From positions 64,001-88,929 of the IMG/VR virus record IMGVR_UViG_3300042923_000186: 24,929 bases of DNA; one strand, written 5' to 3'. The position numbers and the translations under genes were made by a program. Within the stretch, counting starts at the first letter, position 1. Every line of letters starts with the position of its first letter. This stretch comes from a virus (lineage: Duplodnaviria; Heunggongvirae; Uroviricota; Caudoviricetes). The notes beneath the pieces are model-generated. The model was not told where the DNA came from and did not search any database. It saw only the letters and a program-made list of their open reading frames with translations. Shown piece by piece: positions 636 through 13,622 of the stretch.

Positions 636-712
636 TGGCACGCCCGGTACGGAGTTGCACCTACCACAGCAAGGTTTGGAGCCTCGCTCGCCTCTACGGG
701 ACATTCGGACGC
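636..712 (-). tRNA. trnW: tRNA-Trp(CCA), atypical
   Basis: Acceptor GCGTCCG/CGGGCGT, loop CT-CCA-AA on a 7-bp stem, T-loop TGCAACT, GCCA end; A at position 8, short D arm. Confidence 0.75.
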
Positions 713-718
713 ATTTGT

Positions 719-1126
719 TTAATTTCCTGTTCGCTTGTAACGCTCTCTTCGGGAACTCGCTGTGTATCTACCTTTATAGGTATCCGAAGCGGCAGATTTA
801 CATCCTGTGCATCTACACCCTCTTTCGTAGTTTGCCCTAGTTCCGCAACCACTTACAGGTCGCATCCTACGTGATGCAACGTTACATGTTAGATGGCTAA
901 ATGAGATGTTATCTATGTCGAAGTAAAGCCCTACGGGGTCTTCGCTATCCAGCCAAGGAGTTTTATGTTCTACAGAAAACGTATCTCTTGACATGTTCTT
1001 TCCACACTTATAACAGTTATTATTTCCTGTGGTAACTACGAAGTTATATAGCAAATCTCGTGTCAATCTTTGACTTGCAGTGCTAGGATTCATACCTAGT
1101 TGCGTCTGTTTCTTTTCTTGGCTCAA
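719..1126 (-). CDS. HNH endonuclease
   Basis: CYKCG...SVEHKTP...NISFSHLTCN HNH core, C-terminal CGT..Y.RGCRC..C motif; TTG start with AAGGA RBS. Confidence 0.85.
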   Translation of the reverse strand: MSQEKKQTQLGMNPSTASQRLTRDLLYNFVVTTGNNNCYKCGKNMSRDTFSVEHKTPWLDSEDPVGLYFDIDNISFSHLTCNVASRRMRPVSGCGTRANYERGCRCTGCKSAASDTYKGRYTASSRRERYKRTGN

Positions 1127-1156
1127 TGATAGTCCTTAGACATCTATTAACATGTT

Positions 1157-1231
1157 TGGCAGAGGGTAGGCGGATCGAACGCCTCTTCTTGCGGTCAAAG
1201 CGCAATGTCATCACCAGATGACAAACCCCCA
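1157..1231 (-). tRNA. trnQ: tRNA-Gln(TTG)
   Basis: TTGCG-CTTTGAC-CGCAA anticodon arm, T arm AGGCG-TTCGATC-CGCCT, GCCA end; U1:U72 mismatch. Confidence 0.9.
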
Positions 1232-1238
1232 TCTGTTC

Positions 1239-1313
1239 TGGTAGTGGAGGATGGGAACGATCCATCGACCTAACGCTTATCAAGCGTTTGCTCTGCCACT
1301 GAGCTACACCACT
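1239..1313 (-). tRNA. trnI: tRNA-Ile(GAT)
   Basis: AACGC-TTGATAA-GCGTT, D arm TAGCTCAGTGGCAGAGC, T-loop ATCGTTC, ACCA end. Confidence 0.9.
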
Positions 1314-1511
1314 ATTGAAATCCAGTTTACTATTCCCACTGGCTAAAAGTCATGCACATTAGTGCCATCACGCCGTTCTTCGTCACCCTTGTACTTCGGG
1401 ATTGAATCTACGGCCAACCGACAGTTTGTAAGCGACTAGAACTATCTCTAGGGATGAGGCTTACTGACAAGTCCCTTTCGGGGAACGCTTACAGGCCTCT
1501 AAGGGCGATTA

Positions 1512-1608
1512 TGGCGGAGACTGTGAGGCTCGAACTCACACACCGGCTACTAACCGGCCTTCGATTTTCAAGATCGCTGCCGCTAGTCCTCTCTCGGCTA
1601 AAGTCTCC
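1512..1608 (-). tRNA. trnS: tRNA-Ser(TGA)
   Basis: Acceptor GGAGACT/AGTCTCC, loop CT-TGA-AA, long variable arm, GCCA end. Confidence 0.92.
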
Positions 1609-1696
1609 ATGTTCTGTAGCCTGCTTTACGTGCCGGGCTAATTCATCGTCTGGTTGCTCGTAGCCTAAGCAGGACCGTACCAGCAATTCACTCTCT

Positions 1697-1785
1697 TGGC
1701 GGAAGACTGACATCCCGACTGCCATGCGCTTTCGCACACCAAGTGATTAGCAATCACCGCTAGCGCCCCGGCTAGTTAATCTTCC
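1697..1785 (-). tRNA. trnS: tRNA-Ser(GCT), atypical T-loop
   Basis: Acceptor GGAAGAT/GTCTTCC, GGTGA-TTGCTAA-TCACT, long variable arm, T-loop GTCGGGA, GCCA end. Confidence 0.8.
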
Positions 1786-1790
1786 ATATC

Positions 1791-1862
1791 TGGACCCCAA
1801 TGCCCGAGTTGAACGGGCCAATCAGCGTTCGTAGCGCCGGAACCGAATCCGTCGGATCGGGG
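1791..1862 (-). tRNA. trnR: tRNA-Arg(ACG), collapsed D arm
   Basis: Acceptor CCCCGAT/ATTGGGG, CGGCG-CTACGAA-CGCTG, T arm GCCCG-TTCAACT-CGGGC, TCCA end. Confidence 0.8.
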
Positions 1863-1863
1863 A

Positions 1864-1934
1864 TGGTGGAGAATAAGGGACTCGAACCCTTCCTACCGCA
1901 GTGCAAGTGCAGCGTCTAGCCCTCTAGATTCCCC
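1864..1934 (-). tRNA. trnA: tRNA-Ala(TGC), collapsed D arm
   Basis: Acceptor GGGGAAT/ATTCTCC with G3:U70 identity pair, loop CT-TGC-AC, T arm AAGGG-TTCGAGT-CCCTT, ACCA end. Confidence 0.85.
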
Positions 1935-1942
1935 GTTGTTTC

Positions 1943-2018
1943 TGGTAGTTGGTGACGGGATCGAACCGGCGACAGCCTGTGTGTAAGACAGGTACTCTAC
2001 CTACTGAGTTAACCAACT
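1943..2018 (-). tRNA. trnV: tRNA-Val(TAC)
   Basis: Canonical cloverleaf, CCTGT-CTTACAC-ACAGG, ACCA end. Confidence 0.93.
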
Positions 2019-2024
2019 ATTATA

Positions 2025-2100
2025 TGGAATACCATGCGGGACTTGAACCCGGCATCTTCAGATTGAAAGTCTGACGTGCTGACCTTTGCACTAATGGTAT
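2025..2100 (-). tRNA. trnE: tRNA-Glu(TTC)
   Basis: Acceptor ATACCAT/ATGGTAT, TCAGA-CTTTCAA-TCTGA, TCCA end. Confidence 0.88.
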
Positions 2101-2174
2101 ATTGTTTGGTTTCAGGCGAGGCAATATCTAGCCTCCTTGGAACACGATACTTACACGCATCGAACCCTACTACT

Positions 2175-2260
2175 TGGTGCAGTGACTAGGATTCGAACCT
2201 AGACGGACTAGCCGACCACGGGGTTACAGCCCGGTACCCTTCCGAACGGGTGTTCACTAC
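2175..2260 (-). tRNA. trnY: tRNA-Tyr(GTA)
   Basis: Acceptor GTAGTGA/TCACTGC, loop CT-GTA-AC, long variable arm, T arm CTAGG-TTCGAAT-CCTAG, ACCA end; A8. Confidence 0.9.
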
Positions 2261-2270
2261 GATGATTCTG

Positions 2271-2330
2271 CACGGGAGACACCCCGTGGCAGGACTCGAA
2301 CCTGCGACGCTAGACGTACTCGTCTCACGG
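2271..2330 (-). ncRNA. mini tRNA-like element (T arm plus acceptor-like stem, no anticodon arm)
   Basis: CCGTG...GTC-GCAGG-TTCGAGT-CCTGC-CACGG...CCCGTG. Confidence 0.5.
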
Positions 2331-2337
2331 CAATGAT

Positions 2338-2421
2338 TGGTAGGCCGGGAGGGATTCGAACCCTCAAAAGCACGGTTTCTAAGACCGTTAGGTGTACCAG
2401 ATTTCCATCAGCCACCAGCCC
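2338..2421 (-). tRNA. trnL: tRNA-Leu(TAG)
   Basis: Acceptor GGGCTGG/CCGGCCT, ACGGT-CTTAGAA-ACCGT, T arm GAGGG-TTCGAAT-CCCTC, ACCA end; short variable region, enlarged D region. Confidence 0.88.
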
Positions 2422-2490
2422 ATTGTTCTGTCCGTTTCTTGTGGAGGCACGGAGTAGCCTCTATCTAAGGTAGCGAAACTCTAGATAACT

Positions 2491-2564
2491 TGGAGCCCCC
2501 AGAGGGAATCGAACCCTACTCTGCGATGCTTGGAAGGCATGCGGCTCACCTTGAGCTTGGACGC
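2491..2564 (-). tRNA. trnG: tRNA-Gly(TCC)
   Basis: Acceptor GCGTCCA/TGGGGGC, loop CT-TCC-AA, TCCA end; only 1 nt between acceptor and D stem. Confidence 0.85.
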
Positions 2565-2719
2565 ATTTAAATCTAAACGCACAATCTAGCGTCTCCTTCG
2601 TTTCGAGCGTTAGCGAGAAATTACTATTGACGACTTGTGCGTAAACATAAAGCGACTCAGAGACATAGGCAACGCACTTGCCCTGCTCCCGAGTGCGATT
2701 CGTTAAATCGCTTTATGTT

Positions 2720-2798
2720 TGGCTGGCTACCTCGGAATCGAACCGAGCTATTCATTGATTAACAGTCAAGTCCTTGCACCTTGCTTGGATTCTAGCCA
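2720..2798 (-). tRNA. trnN: tRNA-Asn(GTT)
   Basis: Loop CT-GTT-AA, T arm CTCGG-TTCGATT-CCGAG, GCCA end; A8. Confidence 0.88.
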
Positions 2799-2933
2799 AT
2801 TGTTCTGTATTCTAGTCCCGGCTTGCATGTGATCCCGGTTTGTAAGACGACACGCTAGTCTCCTCGTGTCGAATTCGCGTCGAGTTTTCGGCTTGCAAAT
2901 GCTACCGACAGGCGTGACGCGCACTTCCTATTC

Positions 2934-3006
2934 TGGTTGCGAACGCCGGAATCGAACCGTCCTGTGAGCTTATGAGACTCACATGCGCCACTACATCTCT
3001 ATCGCA
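2934..3006 (-). tRNA. tRNA with CAT anticodon (Met/fMet/Ile2 identity unresolved)
   Basis: GTGAGT-CTCATAA-GCTCAC, T-loop TTCGATT, ACCA end; mismatches in acceptor and T stems. Confidence 0.72.
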
Positions 3007-3073
3007 ATTGATCTTTCACACTTCAGGCGCTTTTATTATTAGCGCGGAGTCGTCTATCTGCCACTGGAACGAC

Positions 3074-3102
3074 ATATTATCATAGCTACCTACGTTTGTC
3101 AA
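3074..3102 (-). promoter_or_regulatory. sigma70 promoter inside tRNA array
   Basis: TTGACA-aacgtaggtagctatga(17)-TAATAT with extended TG. Confidence 0.75.
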
Positions 3103-3124
3103 TAGCTAGCTACAAAATTTATTC

Positions 3125-3211
3125 TGGTCTGTGTGGGTGGCTTCGATCCACCAAGGGTTTCCCACTCGCTTCCAAGGCGAGGCCGCTACCTGATTACGGG
3201 GCTACACACAG
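3125..3211 (-). tRNA. trnP: tRNA-Pro(TGG) with long variable arm
   Basis: Acceptor CTGTGTG/CACACAG (C1-G72, A73), CTCGC-CTTGGAA-GCGAG, variable arm TGGGAAACCCT, T-loop ATCGAAG. Confidence 0.88.
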
Positions 3212-3352
3212 TTAAAAGAGTTTAACGACATCGTTTGTTGGTCGGACCTTTAACGTTCTCTTCGGACGTACACACTATCTCCCCGTGTGTAATGGGATTT
3301 GATACTAACGACGCTTGCGTCACTACCCGCACCCTGCGCTTTCTCAGGCTCG

Positions 3353-3428
3353 TGGTTCCGGTTGCAGGACTTGAACCCGCCACCTGACGATTACAAATCG
3401 CCTGCTCTACCAGATGAGCTAAACCGGA
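3353..3428 (-). tRNA. trnT: tRNA-Thr(TGT)
   Basis: Canonical cloverleaf, GGCGA-TTTGTAA-TCGTC, ACCA end. Confidence 0.95.
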
Positions 3429-4209: not shown

Positions 4210-4238
4210 ATTATACACTATCTAGCTAACTATGTCAA
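4210..4238 (-). promoter_or_regulatory. sigma70 promoter
   Basis: TTGACA-tagttagctagatagtg(17)-TATAAT. Confidence 0.9.
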
Positions 4239-4244
4239 CCCCAC

Positions 4245-4410
4245 ATGCTAATGTGTAGTACACTACTTAGTTGTACACTACATGTAATGTGTTATATAAC
4301 TATAGTATATAACTAAGTTGTACTACTAGGTTCTTTCTCTCTTTAAAGGAGAGAGAAAGGAGGGTATATAACAGAGTTGTACTACTTAGTTATATAACAT
4401 AGTACTACTG
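4245..4410. repeat. AT-rich array of short palindromes and direct repeats
   Basis: GTTATATAAC (x2), TAGTACTA, TATATAAC-NN-AGTTGTACTACT (4307-4328 and 4365-4386), central 10-bp inverted repeat CTTTCTCTCT/AGAGAGAAAG (4333-4359). Confidence 0.8.
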
Positions 4411-4421
4411 CTTTTAAAACC

Positions 4422-4450
4422 ATTATACACGCTACCTACGTTCCTGTCAA
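4422..4450 (-). promoter_or_regulatory. sigma70 promoter (leftward, reads through the AT-rich array)
   Basis: TTGACA-ggaacgtaggtagcgtg(17)-TATAAT. Confidence 0.85.
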
Positions 4451-4465
4451 GCCCGGCGAAGGTAG

Positions 4466-4494
4466 TTGACAGCTAGGTAGGTAGCTAGTAGACT
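4466..4494 (+). promoter_or_regulatory. sigma70 promoter (rightward, back-to-back with 4422-4450)
   Basis: TTGACA-gctaggtaggtagctag(17)-TAGACT. Confidence 0.85.
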
Positions 4495-6614: not shown

Positions 6615-6659
6615 TTGACCGTTGTTGATTTACTCGGTATGATGACTAAATCAACAACG
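6615..6659 (+). promoter_or_regulatory. sigma70 promoter overlapped by a perfect 13-bp inverted repeat
   Basis: TTGACC-17-TATGAT (6615-6643); arms CGTTGTTGATTTA (6620-6632) and TAAATCAACAACG (6647-6659). Confidence 0.8.
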
Positions 6660-6675
6660 CATCAGGAGAATTCAA

Positions 6676-7383
6676 ATGTCCAAGAAAATCGTCGGCTACG
6701 TTCGCGTTTCCACCAAAGAGCAAGGCAAGTCTGGTCTGGGTCTTCAGGCCCAGCGTGAAGCACTCCAGCAATGGGCTGCTGCCAAAGGCTACGACCTTGT
6801 ACACGTCTTCGAAGAAGTGATTAGCGGTGCTGTGCCAGTTGATGGTAGGATCATGCTCTCGCGTGCGTTCAAGCTCGCTGCAAAGCACAAAGCGACCGTA
6901 GCAGTTAACCGTCTTGACCGTCTCAGCCGTGATGCGGAAGTATTGCTGCACCTGAGTAAAGCAAAAACGCCTATCGTCGCCCTGAACCTCGGTGAAGACG
7001 TAGACAAGTTCATGTTTGGTATCCACGCCGTGGTAGCTGAGCGAGAGCGTGTCCTTATCTCCATCCGCACGAAGGAAGCCCTTAGCGTGCTCAAGGCTCA
7101 AGGTAAAAAGCTGGGCAACCCGAACATCGAAGATCGCATCACGGATGATGGCCGAGTGGTCAAGGGCATCCACACGTCTCTAGCTATGGCTCGTACGAAG
7201 GTTACTTCCGACGCTGACGACTTCGCAAAGAACATGCGCCCTGCTATCGAGCGTATGCAGCGTCAAGGCATGTCCCTGCGGAAGATTGCAGCCGAGTTCA
7301 ACGCAAACGGTACGAGAACCGCACGGGGCGGTGACTGGACATCTACGACGGTGAAGAACATTACGGCCCGTTGGGCCGAATAA
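6676..7383 (+). CDS. serine recombinase (resolvase/invertase catalytic domain with C-terminal DNA-binding domain)
   Basis: GYVRVSTKEQ catalytic Ser motif, EEVISG, DRLSR, ER..ISIRTKEAL...K.QGKKLGNP, C-terminal TARGGDWTSTTVKNI. Confidence 0.93.
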   Translation: MSKKIVGYVRVSTKEQGKSGLGLQAQREALQQWAAAKGYDLVHVFEEVISGAVPVDGRIMLSRAFKLAAKHKATVAVNRLDRLSRDAEVLLHLSKAKTPIVALNLGEDVDKFMFGIHAVVAERERVLISIRTKEALSVLKAQGKKLGNPNIEDRITDDGRVVKGIHTSLAMARTKVTSDADDFAKNMRPAIERMQRQGMSLRKIAAEFNANGTRTARGGDWTSTTVKNITARWAE

Positions 7384-7394
7384 AGGAGAAACGC

Positions 7395-8135
7395 ATGAGC
7401 AAGGAATTGAAAGAGGCTATGGGCATTATTGCAGGGATTCCAGCCTCGTCCATCGGCGTTAAGTTCATGGAACGGGCAACGCCTGAAGCAAAGCCATCTG
7501 CCAGCGCTGCGCCGGGGAAGACAATCCACAGCCGTGAGTTCCACGAGCTTGCAATGCAGTACCGGGCGGCACGGCCTTTCGGGGGCGCTTCCGGTGCGTA
7601 TAAGCAGATGACCGACCACATCGACGCCGCCATTGCCGCAGCACGGGAAGAGGCGCGGGAGGACGGAGACGCGGCCATCAACGCCATGGCGACAATCGCC
7701 GTCCTGCTTGGCAAGACTGGCGGCCCTGACGAAGTTGTCGCCGACCTGCGCGCCCGTCTCGCTGCGCCAGAGGGTGAAGCCGTGGCTGAGGTGGTGGGCT
7801 GGGAGCGCTTCGGTGCAGGGTACGGCAACACATTGAAATGGCTCACGGACGAGCGGCTGCCAGAAGGTACAAAGCTTCATGCTGTGCAACCACAAGCCAA
7901 AGCACCGCAGCAGCCTGCATGCGATTGCGCTACTGGCGACGCCTTCAAGCCGTATGGCTGCAATCTCTGCAACCCGGACTTTGCCACACCACAGCAGCCA
8001 CCTGCGGGCGAGGAGACTGAGAAGGTGACTTGCGCAGGCTGCAAAGGGACAGGCGAAGGCGTCATCAATGCCTACTCCGAAGCGGGTGGGTGCTCCGACT
8101 GCAATGGAAAGGGCTACGACTGGGAGCCGAAATGA
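7395..8135 (+). CDS. mosaic hypothetical protein with C-terminal CxxCxGxG zinc finger
   Basis: Start ATG 7395 after AAGGAG; CAGCKGTG...CSDCNGKG; also CDC...CNLC. Confidence 0.8.
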   Translation: MSKELKEAMGIIAGIPASSIGVKFMERATPEAKPSASAAPGKTIHSREFHELAMQYRAARPFGGASGAYKQMTDHIDAAIAAAREEAREDGDAAINAMATIAVLLGKTGGPDEVVADLRARLAAPEGEAVAEVVGWERFGAGYGNTLKWLTDERLPEGTKLHAVQPQAKAPQQPACDCATGDAFKPYGCNLCNPDFATPQQPPAGEETEKVTCAGCKGTGEGVINAYSEAGGCSDCNGKGYDWEPK

Positions 8136-8221
8136 GCTGGCACTACTGCCTACTCAGCCCGCCCGTGTGGTGGCCGCTGATCTCGCTGGCGCAGATACTC
8201 TACCGAAAATTGAAGGGATGA
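8132..8221 (+). CDS. 29-aa hydrophobic peptide
   Basis: MSWHYCLLSPPVWWPLISLAQILYRKLKG; ATGA overlaps with both neighbouring genes. Confidence 0.55.
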   Translation: MSWHYCLLSPPVWWPLISLAQILYRKLKG

Positions 8222-9270
8222 TCATGGAAAACACGAACGACAAGACGGCTGTGCAGATGCCACGGCCAGCGGGATACCTGTACGAACTAACATTCGACGG
8301 GCACACGAGCACTGCATTCACGATGATCACGATTGCGCAGCCGGGTCAAGAAAATCGCCGAGCCGTGTTCACGCAAGATCAGGTTGACGCCGTGGCCGCC
8401 GCCCGTGCGGAAGAGGCGCGGCGGGAAGAAGCCGCCATTTACGATCCGATAATCCTTGATCTTCGCAAGGAAATCGCGCGGCTCGCTCTCAATGCCACCC
8501 AGCGCACGGCGGGCGGGGAACTGGTCTACCAGATGCGGCCTTCCAAGGGCAGCCAAGCGGGCGGCCAGTGGTACACAACCGATGTAGACGGCCCGACCAG
8601 CATTGCGCGGAATCCGCAGTGGGCTGACCTGTACGAATTCCGCACACTGCGCGTGGTTCAACCAGTGGCAGAGGCAGCAGCGCAGGCGTATGACGTGCTA
8701 GTGCCTCGCAAGCTGCTAGAGTGGGCGCAGCAGAATATCGATTGCATCGAGGATCAAGATGAACGGGAAAGGGTCAGTGCTGAGATATCGAAGTATCTCA
8801 CCGCGCCCACAGCACAGCCGACGACAGAACAGCAGGCTGAGATCAATGCCGCACTGGATCGCGCTGACGCCGAAGACGCAGCACAGCCGCCGCCGGATGA
8901 CATCGGTGACGTGCATGACCGTGCCTACTTTGATCGCGCCTTGGCCGCTGCGCCCACAGCACAGCCGACGCCAGAATTTGCCCACGACATGCAAATGCTT
9001 GCCGAGGTGATCCCCGGGCCGGGTCCGGACGGCATTCACCCGTCTGCCGCTGGCCGTGCAAAGGTGGTGCAGGCGATGGCAGCACAGCCGACGCGGCAAC
9101 GCTACACCTGTATCGGCAAAGGTGGCTCCTACGTTCTTCTGGGCCTCGCAAAAGGCTCTGGAACGTCAAAGCTGCTTGACGACTTGATGGTGTACCAAGA
9201 CACGGCCACGGGAGCCCTGTATTTCCGTACGCCTGATGATTTTAATAACAGAATGGAGGTGACACTATGA
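8218..9270 (+). CDS. mosaic multi-module hypothetical protein with C-terminal DUF1653-like domain
   Basis: Start reassigned (ATG 8218 or 8224); repeated APTAQPT linkers; C-terminal RYTCIGKGGSY...LMVYQD..GALYFRTPDDF..RM. Confidence 0.78.
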   Translation: MIMENTNDKTAVQMPRPAGYLYELTFDGHTSTAFTMITIAQPGQENRRAVFTQDQVDAVAAARAEEARREEAAIYDPIILDLRKEIARLALNATQRTAGGELVYQMRPSKGSQAGGQWYTTDVDGPTSIARNPQWADLYEFRTLRVVQPVAEAAAQAYDVLVPRKLLEWAQQNIDCIEDQDERERVSAEISKYLTAPTAQPTTEQQAEINAALDRADAEDAAQPPPDDIGDVHDRAYFDRALAAAPTAQPTPEFAHDMQMLAEVIPGPGPDGIHPSAAGRAKVVQAMAAQPTRQRYTCIGKGGSYVLLGLAKGSGTSKLLDDLMVYQDTATGALYFRTPDDFNNRMEVTL

Positions 9271-9785
9271 AGGCCCAGATATTCGCTATGGCCGCTCATG
9301 CGGCTGTCGGCCAGACCCGGAAATACTCCGGCCTTCCCTACCACGTCCACCCGGAGCAGGTACGTCAACTCCTTCTGGATCACGTCCCATACGTGTCCCA
9401 GTCGATGCTCGACGCGGCCAGCCTGCATGACGTACTGGAAGACACAGACGTACCAGCGTGGATGATCGAACACGAGTTCGGCCCGGAGGTCGCCCGGCTT
9501 GTACAGGGCATGACCAAACGGGAGTGGAACACGAAGCCCGCCCCTCCACGCGAATTCCGTTTCCGGTCTGAGGTAGCTAGGCTAGCTAGATGCTGCCCAA
9601 CGGTGAAGACGATTAAGCTTGCCGATAGCTACGCTAACATGTTAGACTACGTAAAAGACGACGTAGAGTACGCCAAGAAAGTGTACCTGCCGGAGAAGCG
9701 CATCCTCTTGGACGAGGCACTGAAGGAAGGCGACAAGACGCTCTGGAACATGTGTGACCAACTTATCAATGAAAATTTAAGGTAA
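9267..9785 (+). CDS. HD-domain hydrolase, RelA/SpoT hydrolase (Mesh1/small alarmone hydrolase)-like
   Basis: AHAAVGQTRKYSGLPYHVHP..V, ASLHDVLEDT, VARLVQGMTK, IKLADSYAN. Confidence 0.9.
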   Translation: MKAQIFAMAAHAAVGQTRKYSGLPYHVHPEQVRQLLLDHVPYVSQSMLDAASLHDVLEDTDVPAWMIEHEFGPEVARLVQGMTKREWNTKPAPPREFRFRSEVARLARCCPTVKTIKLADSYANMLDYVKDDVEYAKKVYLPEKRILLDEALKEGDKTLWNMCDQLINENLR

Positions 9786-9790
9786 ACGTA

Positions 9791-9889
9791 ATGTTATATA
9801 AAATGTACTACTCTAATATTATTACTTGCCGATTTTGTGGCTGGGTGCAATCTACGCCAACTGTTTACTGCCCTTATTGCAAACGGTAA
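9791..9889 (+). CDS. 32-aa zinc-ribbon-like microprotein
   Basis: MLYKMYYSNIITCRFCGWVQSTPTVYCPYCKR (CxxC-x10-CxxC); weak RBS. Confidence 0.5.
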   Translation: MLYKMYYSNIITCRFCGWVQSTPTVYCPYCKR

Positions 9890-9943
9890 GTATATTAAGC
9901 GCCAATATGTTCGACGAACTTAAACAAATGAACGGAGAAGAAA

Positions 9944-10060
9944 ATGACACAAGAACAACTAGCTACCTTCTACGCTATCTTGGAAACCAAGAATAGCTGG
10001 GGCAAGAACGAAGTGAAGACGCTACTGCTGGAAGTTATCGCCGGCATCCGTACGAAATAA
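9944..10060 (+). CDS. 38-aa hypothetical protein
   Basis: MTQEQLATFYAILETKNSWGKNEVKTLLLEVIAGIRTK; RBS GGAG; stop abuts rtcB RBS. Confidence 0.75.
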   Translation: MTQEQLATFYAILETKNSWGKNEVKTLLLEVIAGIRTK

Positions 10061-10070
10061 GGAGAAGAAA

Positions 10071-11303
10071 ATGACCCAACAAAACACCACGGCCAAGCAA
10101 GTTATCTACGAAACCGGCTCCAAGCCTATCAAAATCTGGACGGATGATGTAGAGCCAGATGCTTTGCAGCAGTTGAAAAACATCGCCCGTCTACCTTTTG
10201 TGGCTAAGACTGGCATTGCTGTAATGCCTGATGTCCATCTTGGTAAAGGTGCAACAATAGGTAGCGTAGTTGCGACTACCTCGGCCTTAGTCCCAGCCGC
10301 CTGTGGAGTTGACATCGGCTGTGGCATGGTAGCGTGCCGTCTGTCGCTGAAAGCGTCCGATCTGCCCGACTCCCTGTCCCGGCTTCGCTCTGCCATCGAG
10401 CAACGTGTTCCTGTGGGCGCTGGACAACACAAGACCCGAGACATCCCGGATAACTGGGGTGCAGGCGTGCTAAAGGGAGGGTACGCGTTCGATATCCCGT
10501 CCTCTGTTCTTAACGTGTTCGACGGGGATGTAGCCAAAGCTGCGACAAAAGGAGCACACCAACTAGGTACGCTTGGTAGCGGCAACCACTTCATCGAAAT
10601 CTGCATTGATGAGAACGAAGATGTCTGGGTGATGCTGCATTCCGGCTCCCGTGGCATCGGCAACATGATTGGTAGTTACTACATCGACAAGGCCAAGGAA
10701 CTGATGGAGCGATTCCATATCAAGCTGCCTGACGGCGACCTCGCCTACCTTCCACAAGGTGATGACCTGTTCGATGACTACGTAGCTGCCGTGGCATGGG
10801 CACAGGACTACGCGATGGAGAATCGCAAGACCATGCTAGCCGCCGTGCTGGAAGCTATGAAGCAAGAAATCCGAAAGGAATTCAGCATTACCGAAGAGGC
10901 AATTAACTGCCACCATAACTACGTAGAGAAGGAGAATCACTTTGGACAGAACCTTTGGATCACTCGCAAGGGCGCTATCCGGGCACGAGAAGGCGACTTG
11001 GGCATTATTCCCAGCGCTATGGGTAAAACCAGCTTCATTGTACGAGGCAAAGGAAACAAGGAATCATACTGTTCATGCAGCCACGGTTCCGGCCGTAAAA
11101 TGTCCCGGACGGCAGCGCGTAAACAGTTCACCGTCGCAGACCTCGTGGAACAAACGAAGGGCGTAGAGTGCCGGAAGGACGATGCTGTACTGGACGAGAT
11201 TCCAAGTAGCTACAAAGACATCGAAGTAGTGATGAAGAACCAAGAATCGCTGGTGGACATCGTTCACCGCCTTCGTGCCGTCCTGTGCGTGAAAGGAGCT
11301 TGA
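10071..11303 (+). CDS. rtcB: RNA 2',3'-cyclic phosphate/5'-OH ligase RtcB
   Basis: MPDVHLGKG, GVDIGCG, LGTLGSGNHFIE, LHSGSRG, NCHHNY, RKGA, SHGSGR, DEIP..YK motifs. Confidence 0.96.
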   Translation: MTQQNTTAKQVIYETGSKPIKIWTDDVEPDALQQLKNIARLPFVAKTGIAVMPDVHLGKGATIGSVVATTSALVPAACGVDIGCGMVACRLSLKASDLPDSLSRLRSAIEQRVPVGAGQHKTRDIPDNWGAGVLKGGYAFDIPSSVLNVFDGDVAKAATKGAHQLGTLGSGNHFIEICIDENEDVWVMLHSGSRGIGNMIGSYYIDKAKELMERFHIKLPDGDLAYLPQGDDLFDDYVAAVAWAQDYAMENRKTMLAAVLEAMKQEIRKEFSITEEAINCHHNYVEKENHFGQNLWITRKGAIRAREGDLGIIPSAMGKTSFIVRGKGNKESYCSCSHGSGRKMSRTAARKQFTVADLVEQTKGVECRKDDAVLDEIPSSYKDIEVVMKNQESLVDIVHRLRAVLCVKGA

Positions 11304-11304
11304 C

Positions 11305-11529
11305 ATGTTTGCAATACTGTACGTAATCGGACTGATTGGCTGTATCGTGACAGCCACATGGTTCGTGCAAGAGTCAAAGTCCCGCCTCGGGATGATTTCG
11401 TCGGACTGGAGTGTGATGGTGGTAGCTGCATTCGGCTTTTCAGTCTTCCCTTTCCTGAATGTCCTAGCAGCACTAGCTATGGCGTATGGCACTATGGATT
11501 GCATGGAAAAGTACAAGAAGCATGGCTAA
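11305..11529 (+). CDS. small membrane protein (2 predicted TM helices)
   Basis: 74 aa, two hydrophobic stretches, RBS GGAG. Confidence 0.75.
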   Translation: MFAILYVIGLIGCIVTATWFVQESKSRLGMISSDWSVMVVAAFGFSVFPFLNVLAALAMAYGTMDCMEKYKKHG

Positions 11530-11728
11530 CGACAAACCAGAGCCGTACAAACACGTCGGCCATCGTTTCGACGCCGTAGCTAAGGGTACAGGTAAGCGCT
11601 ACTGTACTGGCTGCGGCCTAGTGGCCCTGAACAACCCATTCACAGAATGGAGCGTACGTATGGGCTGCAACCACAAAGATCACCCTTCGTACGCTAACAA
11701 GCGATTTGAGTTGACAAGGCTTATGTAG
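11522..11728 (+). CDS. hypothetical protein with CxxC and C/H residues
   Basis: Start reassigned to ATG 11522; YCTGCG...GCNH..H. Confidence 0.72.
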   Translation: MANDKPEPYKHVGHRFDAVAKGTGKRYCTGCGLVALNNPFTEWSVRMGCNHKDHPSYANKRFELTRLM

Positions 11729-11762: not shown

Positions 11763-12182
11763 ATGAACACCATGCAATATGAATTCGACCAAGTAGTGGC
11801 CCACCTGTACAAGCAAGGTCGCCCGGCTACCGCTAATGGCAACTGCCTGTACCGGGCAGAAGTAGACGGCCAAACGCTGTCCTGTGCTGTTGGTTGCCGC
11901 ATCCCTGACGATGTGTACGTACCGGATATGGACGTAGCCACGGGTGACTGCGGTACAGGCGTGAGCGGCATCCTACTCCGCTTCGGTGATGTCCTGCCGC
12001 CTGAAATTAAAGCTTACCATACCATGTTCGAGCATATTCAAAGTGCGCATGACTACTTCAGCGGAGAGGCCAGCTTCGCTGATTGGGAAGGCTCTACTGA
12101 ACGGCTGGACAGTCGATTGAAAAAGATTGCCGAGATTCATGGCCTGACCTTCACCAAGCCGGAAGTTAGCAATCATGGCTAA
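11763..12182 (+). CDS. phage hypothetical protein
   Basis: RBS AAGGAG; HLYKQG...CLYR...CAVGCRIPD..Y motif resembles a common phage family (from memory). Confidence 0.85.
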   Translation: MNTMQYEFDQVVAHLYKQGRPATANGNCLYRAEVDGQTLSCAVGCRIPDDVYVPDMDVATGDCGTGVSGILLRFGDVLPPEIKAYHTMFEHIQSAHDYFSGEASFADWEGSTERLDSRLKKIAEIHGLTFTKPEVSNHG

Positions 12183-13599: not shown

Positions 13600-13622
13600 G
13601 CCCCGCCTTGTGCGGGCTTTTT
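13600..13622 (+). terminator. intrinsic terminator ending plus-strand block
   Basis: CCCGC-cttgt-GCGGG-C-TTTTT. Confidence 0.8.

What the first reader, a model, noticed from the sequence alone, without database searches (positions are those of the whole stretch)
9267..11303. SAH-like HD hydrolase plus RtcB plus atypical tRNA array: a candidate tRNA rescue system
Seen: a SpoT/Mesh1-like hydrolase and rtcB in one operon, separated by two microproteins, a few kb from 16 tRNAs. Established: RtcB reseals 2',3'-cyclic-P/5'-OH breaks such as those made by anticodon nucleases. Some toxSAS toxins pyrophosphorylate the tRNA 3'-CCA or make (p)ppApp, and small alarmone hydrolases can reverse or remove these products. 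Inference: the phage may cover three attack modes on translation (replace, religate, unblock CCA or clear alarmones), with the microproteins as possible partners.
Basis: partly seen in the sequence, partly recalled or inferred. Interest (0 to 1): 0.7.

Follow-up and report, generated by a model that had tools for sequence, protein, structure and literature searches.

The report
Phage alarmone hydrolase beside RtcB ligase
An uncultured 89-kb phage co-transcribes an intact SpoT/Mesh1-type alarmone hydrolase and an intact RtcB RNA ligase next to its tRNA operon; both enzyme types are already known in phages, and their pairing is inherited gene order in one phage family rather than a demonstrated multi-part tRNA rescue system.

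Summary
The genes are real. Window 9267-9785 encodes a 172-aa small alarmone hydrolase (SAH) with every catalytic motif. Window 10071-11303 encodes a full-length, catalytically intact RtcB. SAH-RtcB adjacency is kept in 10 related ~80-92-kb phages. Two further relatives have the SAH but no RtcB at the locus, and one of these is a complete genome with none anywhere. Outside the family the pair is rare: 4 of 80 SAH loci and 2 of 75 RtcB loci have the other gene within 10 kb, never adjacent. phiCbK is the one independent close case I checked (2.5 kb, same strand). The two micro-ORFs have no homologue in 169 related loci, so they are not conserved partners. A more general pattern is that SAH genes lie 0-11 kb from the tRNA array in all seven tRNA-rich SAH phages examined. 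Phage SAHs are already shown to neutralise toxSAS toxins (Jimmy 2020). This scan has noted the same family and similar pairs on other DNA. Verdict: two independent, known translation-protection enzymes in an early accessory operon; ordinary.

The parts
636..3428 (-). Operon of 15 tRNA genes, in transcription order Thr, Pro, Met, Asn, Gly, Leu, Tyr, Glu, Val, Ala, Arg, Ser, Ile, Gln, Trp. All have an encoded 3'-CCA and many have degenerate D-arms. An HNH-like ORF (719-1126) lies inside the array.
   Evidence: ARAGORN finds 7 at default and 15 at -ps85/90. Rfam RF00005 finds 7-8 at or above 29 bits. The HNH match is weak.
4210..4494 (.). Divergent control region. Minus-strand consensus promoters at 4450 and 4238 (and 3815) point toward the tRNA operon. 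A plus-strand promoter at 4466 points toward the accessory operon.
   Evidence: Promoter scan: TTGACA-17-TATAAT at 12 of 12 matches on the minus strand, and 10 of 12 matches on the plus strand.
6615..6643 (+). Sigma70-like promoter (TTGACC-17-TATGAT) in front of the recombinase-SAH-RtcB unit.
   Evidence: No plus-strand terminator-like site was found until 13602.
6676..7383 (+). Small serine recombinase (235 aa), a conserved upstream neighbour of the SAH in this phage family.
   Evidence: Pfam Resolvase E 1.9e-25. Homologue present in 10 of 11 related loci.
7371..9270 (+). GC-rich (0.59-0.60) insert with two ORFs (254 aa and 400 aa). It is unique to this phage and is not part of the conserved backbone.
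   Evidence: Composition profile. No homologue in 11 relatives. Only the C-terminus matches phrog_12584.
9267..9785 (+). Small alarmone hydrolase (SAH), SpoT/Mesh1-type HD_4 domain, 172 aa, catalytically intact.
   Evidence: Pfam PF13328 and phrog_990. Invariant R18 K19 Y25 H28 H54 D55 E58 D59 D120 N124 across 29 homologues. The family profile hits Lmo0812, Mesh1 and Rel/SpoT hydrolase structures at E 1e-24 to 4e-26.
9791..9889 (+). Orphan 32-aa ORF with CxxC...CxxC.
   Evidence: A sub-threshold zinc-ribbon hint (E 0.0056). No homologue.
9944..10060 (+). Orphan 38-aa ORF with a GGAG ribosome-binding site.
   Evidence: No homologue in 169 loci or elsewhere in the genome.
10071..11303 (+). RtcB RNA 3'-phosphate/2',3'-cyclic-phosphate to 5'-OH ligase, 410 aa, catalytically intact.
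   Evidence: Pfam PF01139 positions 1-426 of 426, E 1.7e-124. Aligns to solved RtcB structures (2epg, 4dwr, 1uc2) with the MPDxH, DIGCG, GSGNHF, HSGSRG, HHN and CSHGSGR motifs kept.
11305..11529 (+). 74-aa hydrophobic small ORF, unique to this phage.
11522..11728 (+). Conserved small zinc-type protein ('o80', phrog_7020; invariant H, C, C, C, H). It follows RtcB in 8 of 11 relatives.
11763..12182 (+). The 'o139' family gene (phrog_17693). In four relatives it sits between SAH and RtcB. Function unknown.
   Evidence: AF2 model pLDDT 83.
13602..13616 (+). First plus-strand intrinsic-terminator-like site downstream of the operon.

Best explanation
This is an early accessory operon of an uncultured, complete 88.9-kb phage. 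It co-expresses two independent translation-protection enzymes and diverges from the phage's own tRNA operon.

The SAH is an Mn-dependent 3'-pyrophosphohydrolase. It most likely removes the 3'-diphosphate from (p)ppGpp or (p)ppApp, and/or from tRNA CCA ends pyrophosphorylated by host toxSAS effectors. RtcB most likely reseals tRNA (or rRNA) cut by host ribotoxins that leave 2',3'-cyclic-phosphate and 5'-OH ends.

The two genes are neighbours because one phage family inherited that order. They do not need each other, and the two micro-ORFs between them are lineage-specific filler.

Shown: gene identity, intact catalytic motifs, the likely single transcription unit, and the distribution in relatives. 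Inferred: the substrates, the counter-defence role, and early expression.
For: - Family assignments and intact motifs.
- Homology to the tested phage SAH PaSpo-SSU5 (H27/H28).
- No SAS/toxSAS gene in the phage, so the SAH is stand-alone and not an antitoxin of a phage-borne toxin.
- Promoters without an intervening terminator.
- SAH-RtcB adjacency is confined to one HD clade separated at 100/98 support: the window plus the P0003 contig, L002, L004, L006, L007, L090, L091, L092, L093 and L102.
- RtcB is dispensable. L003 has SAH followed directly by o80. L009 is a 100%-complete 90-kb genome with recombinase, SAH and tRNAs but no RtcB.
- The spacer between the genes varies from about 10 to 1040 nt and holds different genes in different relatives.
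- The micro-ORFs have no homologues.
- RtcB lies within 10 kb of only 4 of 80 other SAH loci, all one lineage and 6-7 kb away, where RtcB sits with RlaP and a ligase instead.
- RtcB is present in only 3 of 45 whole SAH-bearing records.
- An SAH lies within 10 kb of only 2 of 75 non-family RtcB loci.
- No RtcB lies near 80 bacterial HD_4 loci.
Against: - The pair stays together through heavy gene turnover around and between the two genes, and even where the recombinase has moved (L093).
- An unrelated lineage, phiCbK, also keeps RtcB and an HD_4 hydrolase 2.5 kb apart on one strand of a 216-kb genome. PHB04, L139 and the L030 lineage have them 5-7 kb apart.
- SAH genes lie 0-11 kb from the tRNA array in all seven SAH-bearing records with 16 or more tRNAs (distances 4.9, 8.8, 11.4, 1.4, 6.2, 0 and 6.5 kb). 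This hints at more than random placement.
- No substrate or phenotype has been measured for this protein.
Confidence: 0.65

Rival explanations
1. This is an integrated tRNA rescue system. The tRNA array, RtcB, the SAH and the small proteins were selected to act together against three kinds of attack on tRNA: replace, religate and unblock. The small ORFs would be partners or regulators.
For: - The genes are co-transcribed and share a divergent promoter region with the tRNA operon.
- Adjacency is kept in 10 relatives.
- Loose proximity recurs in phiCbK, PHB04 and the L030 lineage.
- SAH genes tend to sit near tRNA arrays.
- The known activities fit.
Against: - All adjacent cases are one clade.
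- RtcB is absent from the L003 locus and from the whole L009 genome.
- The micro-ORFs are orphans.
- Most SAH phages lack RtcB, and most RtcB phages lack a nearby SAH.
- No fusion of this SAH type with RNA-repair domains appears among the top 120 longer homologues.
Confidence: 0.12
2. This is host-physiology control rather than counter-defence. The SAH clears (p)ppGpp made during infection, so that the stringent response does not shut down stable-RNA-type promoters (including the phage tRNA operon) or translation. RtcB is general RNA housekeeping.
For: - The pocket motifs are canonical Rel/SpoT ones (GQxRK...PYxxHP, HD, ED, D, N).
- The gene sits beside a tRNA operon driven by consensus sigma70 promoters.
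- SAH proximity to tRNA arrays recurs in several lineages.
Against: - There are no data on alarmone levels for this phage.
- Homologous phage SAHs act on toxSAS products as well, so sequence cannot separate the two roles.
Confidence: 0.2
3. The two enzymes cooperate chemically on RNA 3' ends. The SAH would remove 3'-pyrophosphate-type blocks, for example CCA-pp or the RNA(3')pp(5')G intermediate made by RtcB. Together the pair would then convert dead-end 3'-phosphate ends to 3'-OH or to ligatable ends.
For: Only the adjacency and the chemistry of the two families, which is inference. An earlier scan note (e1-1853685) claims that SpoT-like hydrolases recur beside RNA-repair enzymes; I did not verify it.
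Against: - The SAH persists without RtcB in L003 and L009.
- No fusions were found.
- No biochemical precedent was found in the papers searched.
Confidence: 0.05
4. RtcB serves maturation of the phage's own atypical tRNAs (protein-dependent splicing or end joining) rather than repair.
For: RtcB is the tRNA-splicing ligase of archaea and animals. Several phage tRNAs here are unusually long or irregular.
Against: - ARAGORN with intron search finds no credible intron in the 15 tRNAs. The only 'intron' calls are implausible ones of 118 and 1418 nt.
- I saw no splicing endonuclease, but I did not search for one specifically.
- Relatives with similar tRNA arrays lack RtcB.
Confidence: 0.03

Closest known systems
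Stand-alone phage small alarmone hydrolases: PaSpo of Salmonella phage SSU5 and PbcSpo of phage PVP-SE1 (Jimmy et al. 2020, PMC7229694)
   Same: Single HD_4 domain of about 170-210 aa with the same catalytic motifs. It is encoded by a phage without a partner toxin. The window protein is 37.6% identical to the SSU5 protein over 85% of its length.
   Different: - SSU5 has no RtcB or tRNA genes near its SAH.
- The window enzyme is untested.
- It belongs to a separate clade of about 90-kb tRNA-rich phages.
RtcB RNA ligases (E. coli RtcB; P. horikoshii and T. thermophilus structures; phage RtcB, phrog_1075)
   Same: Full-length match with all metal-binding and guanylylation motifs. At about 410 aa it is the size of the bacterial type.
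   Different: The phage has no RtcA, archease, RlaP or Ro60. The in vivo substrate is unknown.
RtcB ... SAH accessory operon of phiCbK-like Caulobacter phages
   Same: RtcB and an HD_4 phosphohydrolase lie on one strand within a run of small genes.
   Different: - The genes are 2.5 kb and eight genes apart, in the opposite order (RtcB first).
- The SAH is only about 31% identical to members of the window's family.
- The host genome is a 216-kb jumbo-like phage.
Bacterial rsr-Y RNA-rtcBA RNA repair operon (Salmonella) and phage TROVE/RtcB sets (Iyer et al. 2021, PMC7824862)
   Same: RtcB is associated with RNA-quality-control genes and tRNA-like RNAs. Relatives L004, L009 and the P0003 contig carry a TROVE/Ro60 gene inside the tRNA operon.
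   Different: The window genome has no TROVE and no RtcA. In the Salmonella case the operon is cellular and stress-induced (from my own knowledge, not checked here).
T4 Pnkp/Rnl1 repair of PrrC-cut tRNA-Lys, and phage tRNA arrays that evade anticodon nucleases (PMC10264068)
   Same: The logic is the same: a phage repairs or replaces tRNAs attacked by host defence.
   Different: The enzyme chemistry differs: RtcB seals directly, whereas T4 heals and then seals. Neither an attack nor a rescue has been shown here.

Membership tests
Small alarmone hydrolase (RelA/SpoT-homologue hydrolase, HD_4) | HD_4 (PF13328) domain as the only domain, with no synthetase domain | tested here: met
   PF13328 E 2.1e-10 covering residues 4-126 of 172. 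No PF04607 anywhere in the genome.
Small alarmone hydrolase (RelA/SpoT-homologue hydrolase, HD_4) | Metal ligands H...HD...D, plus the catalytic ED and the RK / N substrate motifs | tested here: met
   R18, K19, Y25, H28, H54-D55, E58-D59, D120 and N124 are invariant in 29 homologues. They align to Lmo0812, Mesh1 and Rel structures.
Small alarmone hydrolase (RelA/SpoT-homologue hydrolase, HD_4) | 3'-pyrophosphohydrolase activity on (p)ppGpp, (p)ppApp or pyrophosphorylated tRNA | not testable with these tools
   Inferred only from homology to PaSpo-SSU5.
RtcB RNA ligase | Full-length RtcB domain with the Cys/His/Asp metal site and the guanylylated His | tested here: met
   PF01139 positions 1-426 of 426, E 1.7e-124. 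D81, C84, N172, H173, H190, H281/H282 and H338 are invariant in 15 homologues. Alignment to 2epg.
toxSAS-SAH type IV toxin-antitoxin module (FaRel/ATfaRel type) | An adjacent small alarmone synthetase toxin gene | tested here: not met
   No RelA_SpoT synthetase domain in the complete genome. The neighbours are unrelated ORFs.
rsr/Y-RNA/rtcBA-type or RtcB-RlaP-type RNA repair operon | RtcA cyclase, Ro60/TROVE or an RlaP nucleotidyltransferase encoded with RtcB | tested here: not met
   PF01137, PF05731, PF10127 and archease PF01951 are all absent from the genome. TROVE is present only in relatives.
Dedicated multi-gene 'tRNA rescue system' (SAH + RtcB as an obligate pair) | Co-occurrence and adjacency of the two genes in phylogenetically independent lineages | tested here: not met
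   - Adjacency occurs only in one clade.
- RtcB is absent in the clade members L003 (locus) and L009 (genome).
- RtcB is present in 3 of 45 SAH-bearing records.
- Looser proximity (2.5-7 kb) occurs in 4 other lineages.
Dedicated multi-gene 'tRNA rescue system' (SAH + RtcB as an obligate pair) | Conserved small partner proteins between the two genes | tested here: not met
   The 32-aa and 38-aa ORFs have no homologue in 169 loci. The spacer content differs in every relative.

The most novel reading that the evidence does not exclude
In tRNA-rich phages the SAH is a dedicated tRNA 3'-end deblocking enzyme, placed and expressed with the tRNA operon. In this family it works in series with RtcB on damaged tRNA ends: it removes CCA-pyrophosphate, or hydrolyses RtcB's RNA(3')pp(5')G intermediate to regenerate 3'-OH. 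The SAH, RtcB and tRNA array would then form a genuine three-layer tRNA protection unit.
Probability: 0.08. Interest if true: 0.7.

Novelty: new member of a known kind. Interest (0 to 1): 0.3.

Why it matters
If the pair really cooperated, it would be the first phage module that both repairs and deblocks tRNA, and a handle on how phages escape toxSAS (CapRel/FaRel2-type) and anticodon-nuclease defences together. As the evidence stands, it adds one more uncultured phage family to the list of phages carrying stand-alone SAHs and RtcB. The counter-defence role of both was already proposed or shown (Jimmy 2020; Iyer 2021). The one pattern worth a proper census is that SAH genes sit close to tRNA arrays in several tRNA-rich phage lineages.

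Tried and rejected
- Close relatives by exact peptide patterns of the SAH in IMG/VR: none found. The alignment-based scan worked.
- DNA-level relatives in the phage collection: only short tRNA and RtcB matches.
- Micro-ORF homologues by sensitive tblastn and blastn: none.
- Structured RNA in the SAH-RtcB spacer: none (z -0.11; no Rfam hit).
- Fold of the conserved neighbour o139 (pLDDT 83). Foldseek against the PDB gave nothing at E <= 0.001. VIA-align's best hit was Z 5.3, a helical arrangement only. No function assigned.
- Fold of o80 (pLDDT 68): best Z 2.7. No function assigned.
- Complex prediction of RtcB with o80: no verdict, score 0.00. This is not evidence either way.
- Longer (fused) homologues of the SAH: the top 120 are long Rel/SpoT proteins plus a few HD_4-only or HD_4+NUDIX forms, with no RNA-repair fusion. 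This is weak evidence, because long RSH proteins crowd the list.
- Bacterial genome scan with the SAH alignment: it mostly returned long Rel/SpoT genes, none with RtcB within 10 kb.
- SAH as antitoxin of a phage toxSAS: rejected, because the genome has no synthetase gene.
- RtcB as a splicing ligase for intron-bearing phage tRNAs: no credible introns.
- Burroughs & Aravind 2016 on RNA repair systems could not be retrieved, so nothing is cited from it.
- The statistics on SAH-to-tRNA-array distance were done by hand. They are rough: about five independent lineages, and accessory genes cluster anyway.
Full report
**What is there**

The window is the last 24,929 bases of a complete 88,929-bp virus record with direct terminal repeats.
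- ORF 9267-9785 (+) encodes a 172-aa protein that matches Pfam HD_4 (E 2.1e-10) and phrog_990 'metal-dependent phosphohydrolase'.
- ORF 10071-11303 (+) encodes a 410-aa protein that matches the whole Pfam RtcB model (E 1.7e-124) and phrog_1075.
- Between them lie a 32-aa ORF (9791-9889, CxxC...CxxC) and a 38-aa ORF (9944-10060, preceded by GGAG).
- The SAH start overlaps the stop of the upstream ORF (ATGA).
- Plus-strand sigma70-like promoters lie at 4466, 6615 and 11711. No plus-strand terminator-like site appears until 13602. So recombinase, SAH, RtcB and the following small genes are most simply one transcription unit.
- Three consensus minus-strand promoters (4450, 4238, 3815) point the other way, into the tRNA operon.

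**tRNAs**

- ARAGORN at default finds 7 tRNAs in the window, and Rfam finds 7 above its gathering score.
- With a relaxed threshold ARAGORN finds a contiguous minus-strand array of 15 at 636-3428: Thr, Pro, Met, Asn, Gly, Leu, Tyr, Glu, Val, Ala, Arg, Ser, Ile, Gln, Trp. Each has an encoded CCA end, and many have weak D-arms. Rfam run on the region alone gives 8 at or above 29 bits and 2 weaker hits.
- No credible intron was found.

**Are the enzymes intact?**

- In an alignment of 29 SAH homologues, R18, K19, Y25, H28, H54-D55, E58-D59, D120 and N124 are invariant. These are the Rel/SpoT/Mesh1 hydrolase motifs.
- The SAH family profile hits Lmo0812, Drosophila and human Mesh1, and Rel/SpoT hydrolase domains at E 4e-26 to 4e-24. 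It also hits known SAH and (p)ppApp hydrolase structures.
- The window protein is 37.6% identical over 85% of its length to the SSU5 protein. That protein is the PaSpo SAH shown to neutralise all tested toxSAS toxins (PMC7229694) and to remove the FaRel2 tRNA modification (bioRxiv 10.1101/2024.07.05.602228).
- RtcB aligns to solved RtcB structures and keeps the MPDxH, DIGCG, GSGNHF, HSGSRG, HHN and CSHGSGR motifs.
- The genome has no alarmone synthetase, RtcA, archease, RlaP or Ro60 gene. A PF09414-type ligase lies far away, at genome position 6868-7476.

**Linkage in relatives**

Exact-protein look-ups and IMG/VR scans recovered a family of about 80-92-kb phages with the same layout: minus-strand tRNA array, divergent promoter region, small serine recombinase, SAH, RtcB.
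- SAH and RtcB are adjacent in the P0003 contig, L002, L004, L006, L007, L090, L091, L092, L093 and L102. In L007 RtcB is split by a frameshift.
- The gap between the two genes varies from about 10 to 1040 nt. It holds nothing (L002, L102), an unrelated 101-aa ORF (L004), or one or two copies of the o139 family (L006, L090, L091, L092).
- The window's own micro-ORFs have no homologue in any of 169 fetched loci or elsewhere in the genome. They are orphans, not conserved partners.
- Two family members keep the SAH without RtcB at the locus. In L003 the SAH is followed directly by the small zinc-type gene o80. L009 is a 100%-complete 90-kb genome with recombinase, SAH, Ro60 and 16 tRNAs but no RtcB anywhere.
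- In the SAH tree all adjacent pairs fall on one side of a branch with 100/98 support. The adjacency is therefore one evolutionary event.
- The 1.9-kb GC-rich stretch between recombinase and SAH is unique to this phage.

**Linkage outside the family**

- Of 80 IMG/VR loci with the nearest other SAHs (39-48% identity), 4 have RtcB within 10 kb. All four belong to one lineage, with RtcB 6-7 kb away next to RlaP and a ligase. Replication genes and ClpP lie between RtcB and the SAH.
- In whole-record searches, 3 of 45 SAH-bearing records have RtcB. Among records at least 90% complete, 1 of 16 does, and there the two genes are about 23 kb apart.
- Of 80 loci with the nearest RtcBs (53-73% identity), the 5 best are the family itself. 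Of the other 75, only 2 have an SAH within 10 kb: PHB04 at 5.3 kb on the opposite strand, and L139 at 6 kb.
- No RtcB lies within 10 kb of 80 bacterial HD_4 loci.
- Following a lead from earlier scan notes, I confirmed that Caulobacter phage phiCbK carries RtcB and an HD_4 phosphohydrolase 2.5 kb apart on one strand.
- Jumbo Pseudomonas phages with both genes keep them 12 to more than 100 kb apart.
- So the pair recurs loosely in a few lineages but is not a rule. Accessory genes cluster anyway.

**A more general pattern**

In the seven SAH-bearing IMG/VR records that have 16 or more tRNAs, the SAH lies 4.9, 8.8, 11.4, 1.4, 6.2, 0 (inside the array) and 6.5 kb from the array. In the window the distance is 5.8 kb. 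By hand, uniform placement would give this only rarely: combined p is about 0.02 on conservative contig lengths. However, these are only about five independent lineages, and no control gene family was run. The pattern suggests that SAH genes belong to the 'tRNA neighbourhood' of tRNA-rich phages. It fits either deblocking of tRNA ends or relief of (p)ppGpp repression of stable-RNA promoters.

**Interpretation**

The best reading is two independent, already-known kinds of phage translation-protection enzyme, co-expressed early beside the tRNA operon. The idea that phage SAHs bypass alarmone- or toxSAS-based immunity is stated in Jimmy et al. 2020. HD-alarmone phosphodiesterases, RtcB and TROVE proteins in large phages are catalogued in Iyer et al. 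2021. The claim of a system with microprotein partners is not supported. Earlier notes of this scan describe the same phage family (e1-3273822, e1-1831378) and similar pairs in other phages, and they reach the same verdict.

**Side tests that led nowhere**

- The conserved neighbours o139 (confident model) and o80 found no structural relatives.
- A complex prediction of RtcB with o80 gave no verdict.
- Longer homologues of the SAH showed no RNA-repair fusions.

Noticed in passing
window 7371-9270: A GC-rich island (0.59-0.60 against about 0.51) with two ORFs lies between the recombinase and the SAH. One ORF is 254 aa and ends in Cys-rich CxxC repeats. The other is a 400-aa Ala/Pro-rich ORF whose C-terminus matches phrog_12584. 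The island is absent from all 11 relatives, so it is probably a recent insertion.
   Followed up: partly
window 11763-12182; L006:8624-9446, L090:9037-9411, L091:9583-9987, L092:9610-9987, L086:7493-7885: A roaming small-gene family (phrog_17693; invariant Cys28, Cys41, His96, Asp97). It sits between SAH and RtcB in four relatives, and 2 kb from a distant SAH in L086. The AF2 model is confident (pLDDT 83) but has no PDB match.
   Followed up: partly
window 11522-11728: A conserved zinc-type protein of about 66 aa (phrog_7020; invariant H, C, C, C, H) follows RtcB in 8 of 11 relatives. In L003, where RtcB is missing, it follows the SAH directly. Fold and function are unknown.
   Followed up: partly
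L004:1874-3256 (-), L009:2109-3407 (-), P0003 contig: Relatives carry a TROVE/Ro60 gene inside the tRNA operon, and the window genome has none. Ro60 together with RtcB recalls the bacterial rsr-rtcBA repair operons, so a Y-RNA-like partner could be sought among the irregular tRNA-like genes.
   Followed up: partly
window 6676-7383: A small serine recombinase (235 aa, catalytic Ser motif present) is conserved just upstream of the SAH in a lytic-looking phage family. Its role is unknown. In L093 it has moved downstream of RtcB.
   Followed up: partly
IMG/VR records behind L009, L026, L030, L034, L055, L061, L063: In all seven SAH-bearing records with 16 or more tRNAs, the SAH lies 0-11 kb from the tRNA array. 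In L061 it lies inside the array. This is worth a controlled census.
   Followed up: partly
window 719-1126 (-): A 135-aa ORF with a weak HNH endonuclease match lies inside the tRNA array. Homologues sit at the same place in L002, L003, L009, L091 and L092.
   Followed up: no
genome C1:6868-7476 (outside the window; L252): A second ligase of the PF09414 (Rnl2/RNA_ligase) type lies in a 400-aa frame, unlinked to RtcB.
   Followed up: no
P0003 contig (no DNA available): The closest relative with context (SAH 69% identical) has its RtcB called as 718 aa, which may mean an intein or a fused domain.
   Followed up: no
window 11305-11529: A 74-aa ORF with two hydrophobic segments lies directly after RtcB and is unique to this phage.
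   Followed up: no
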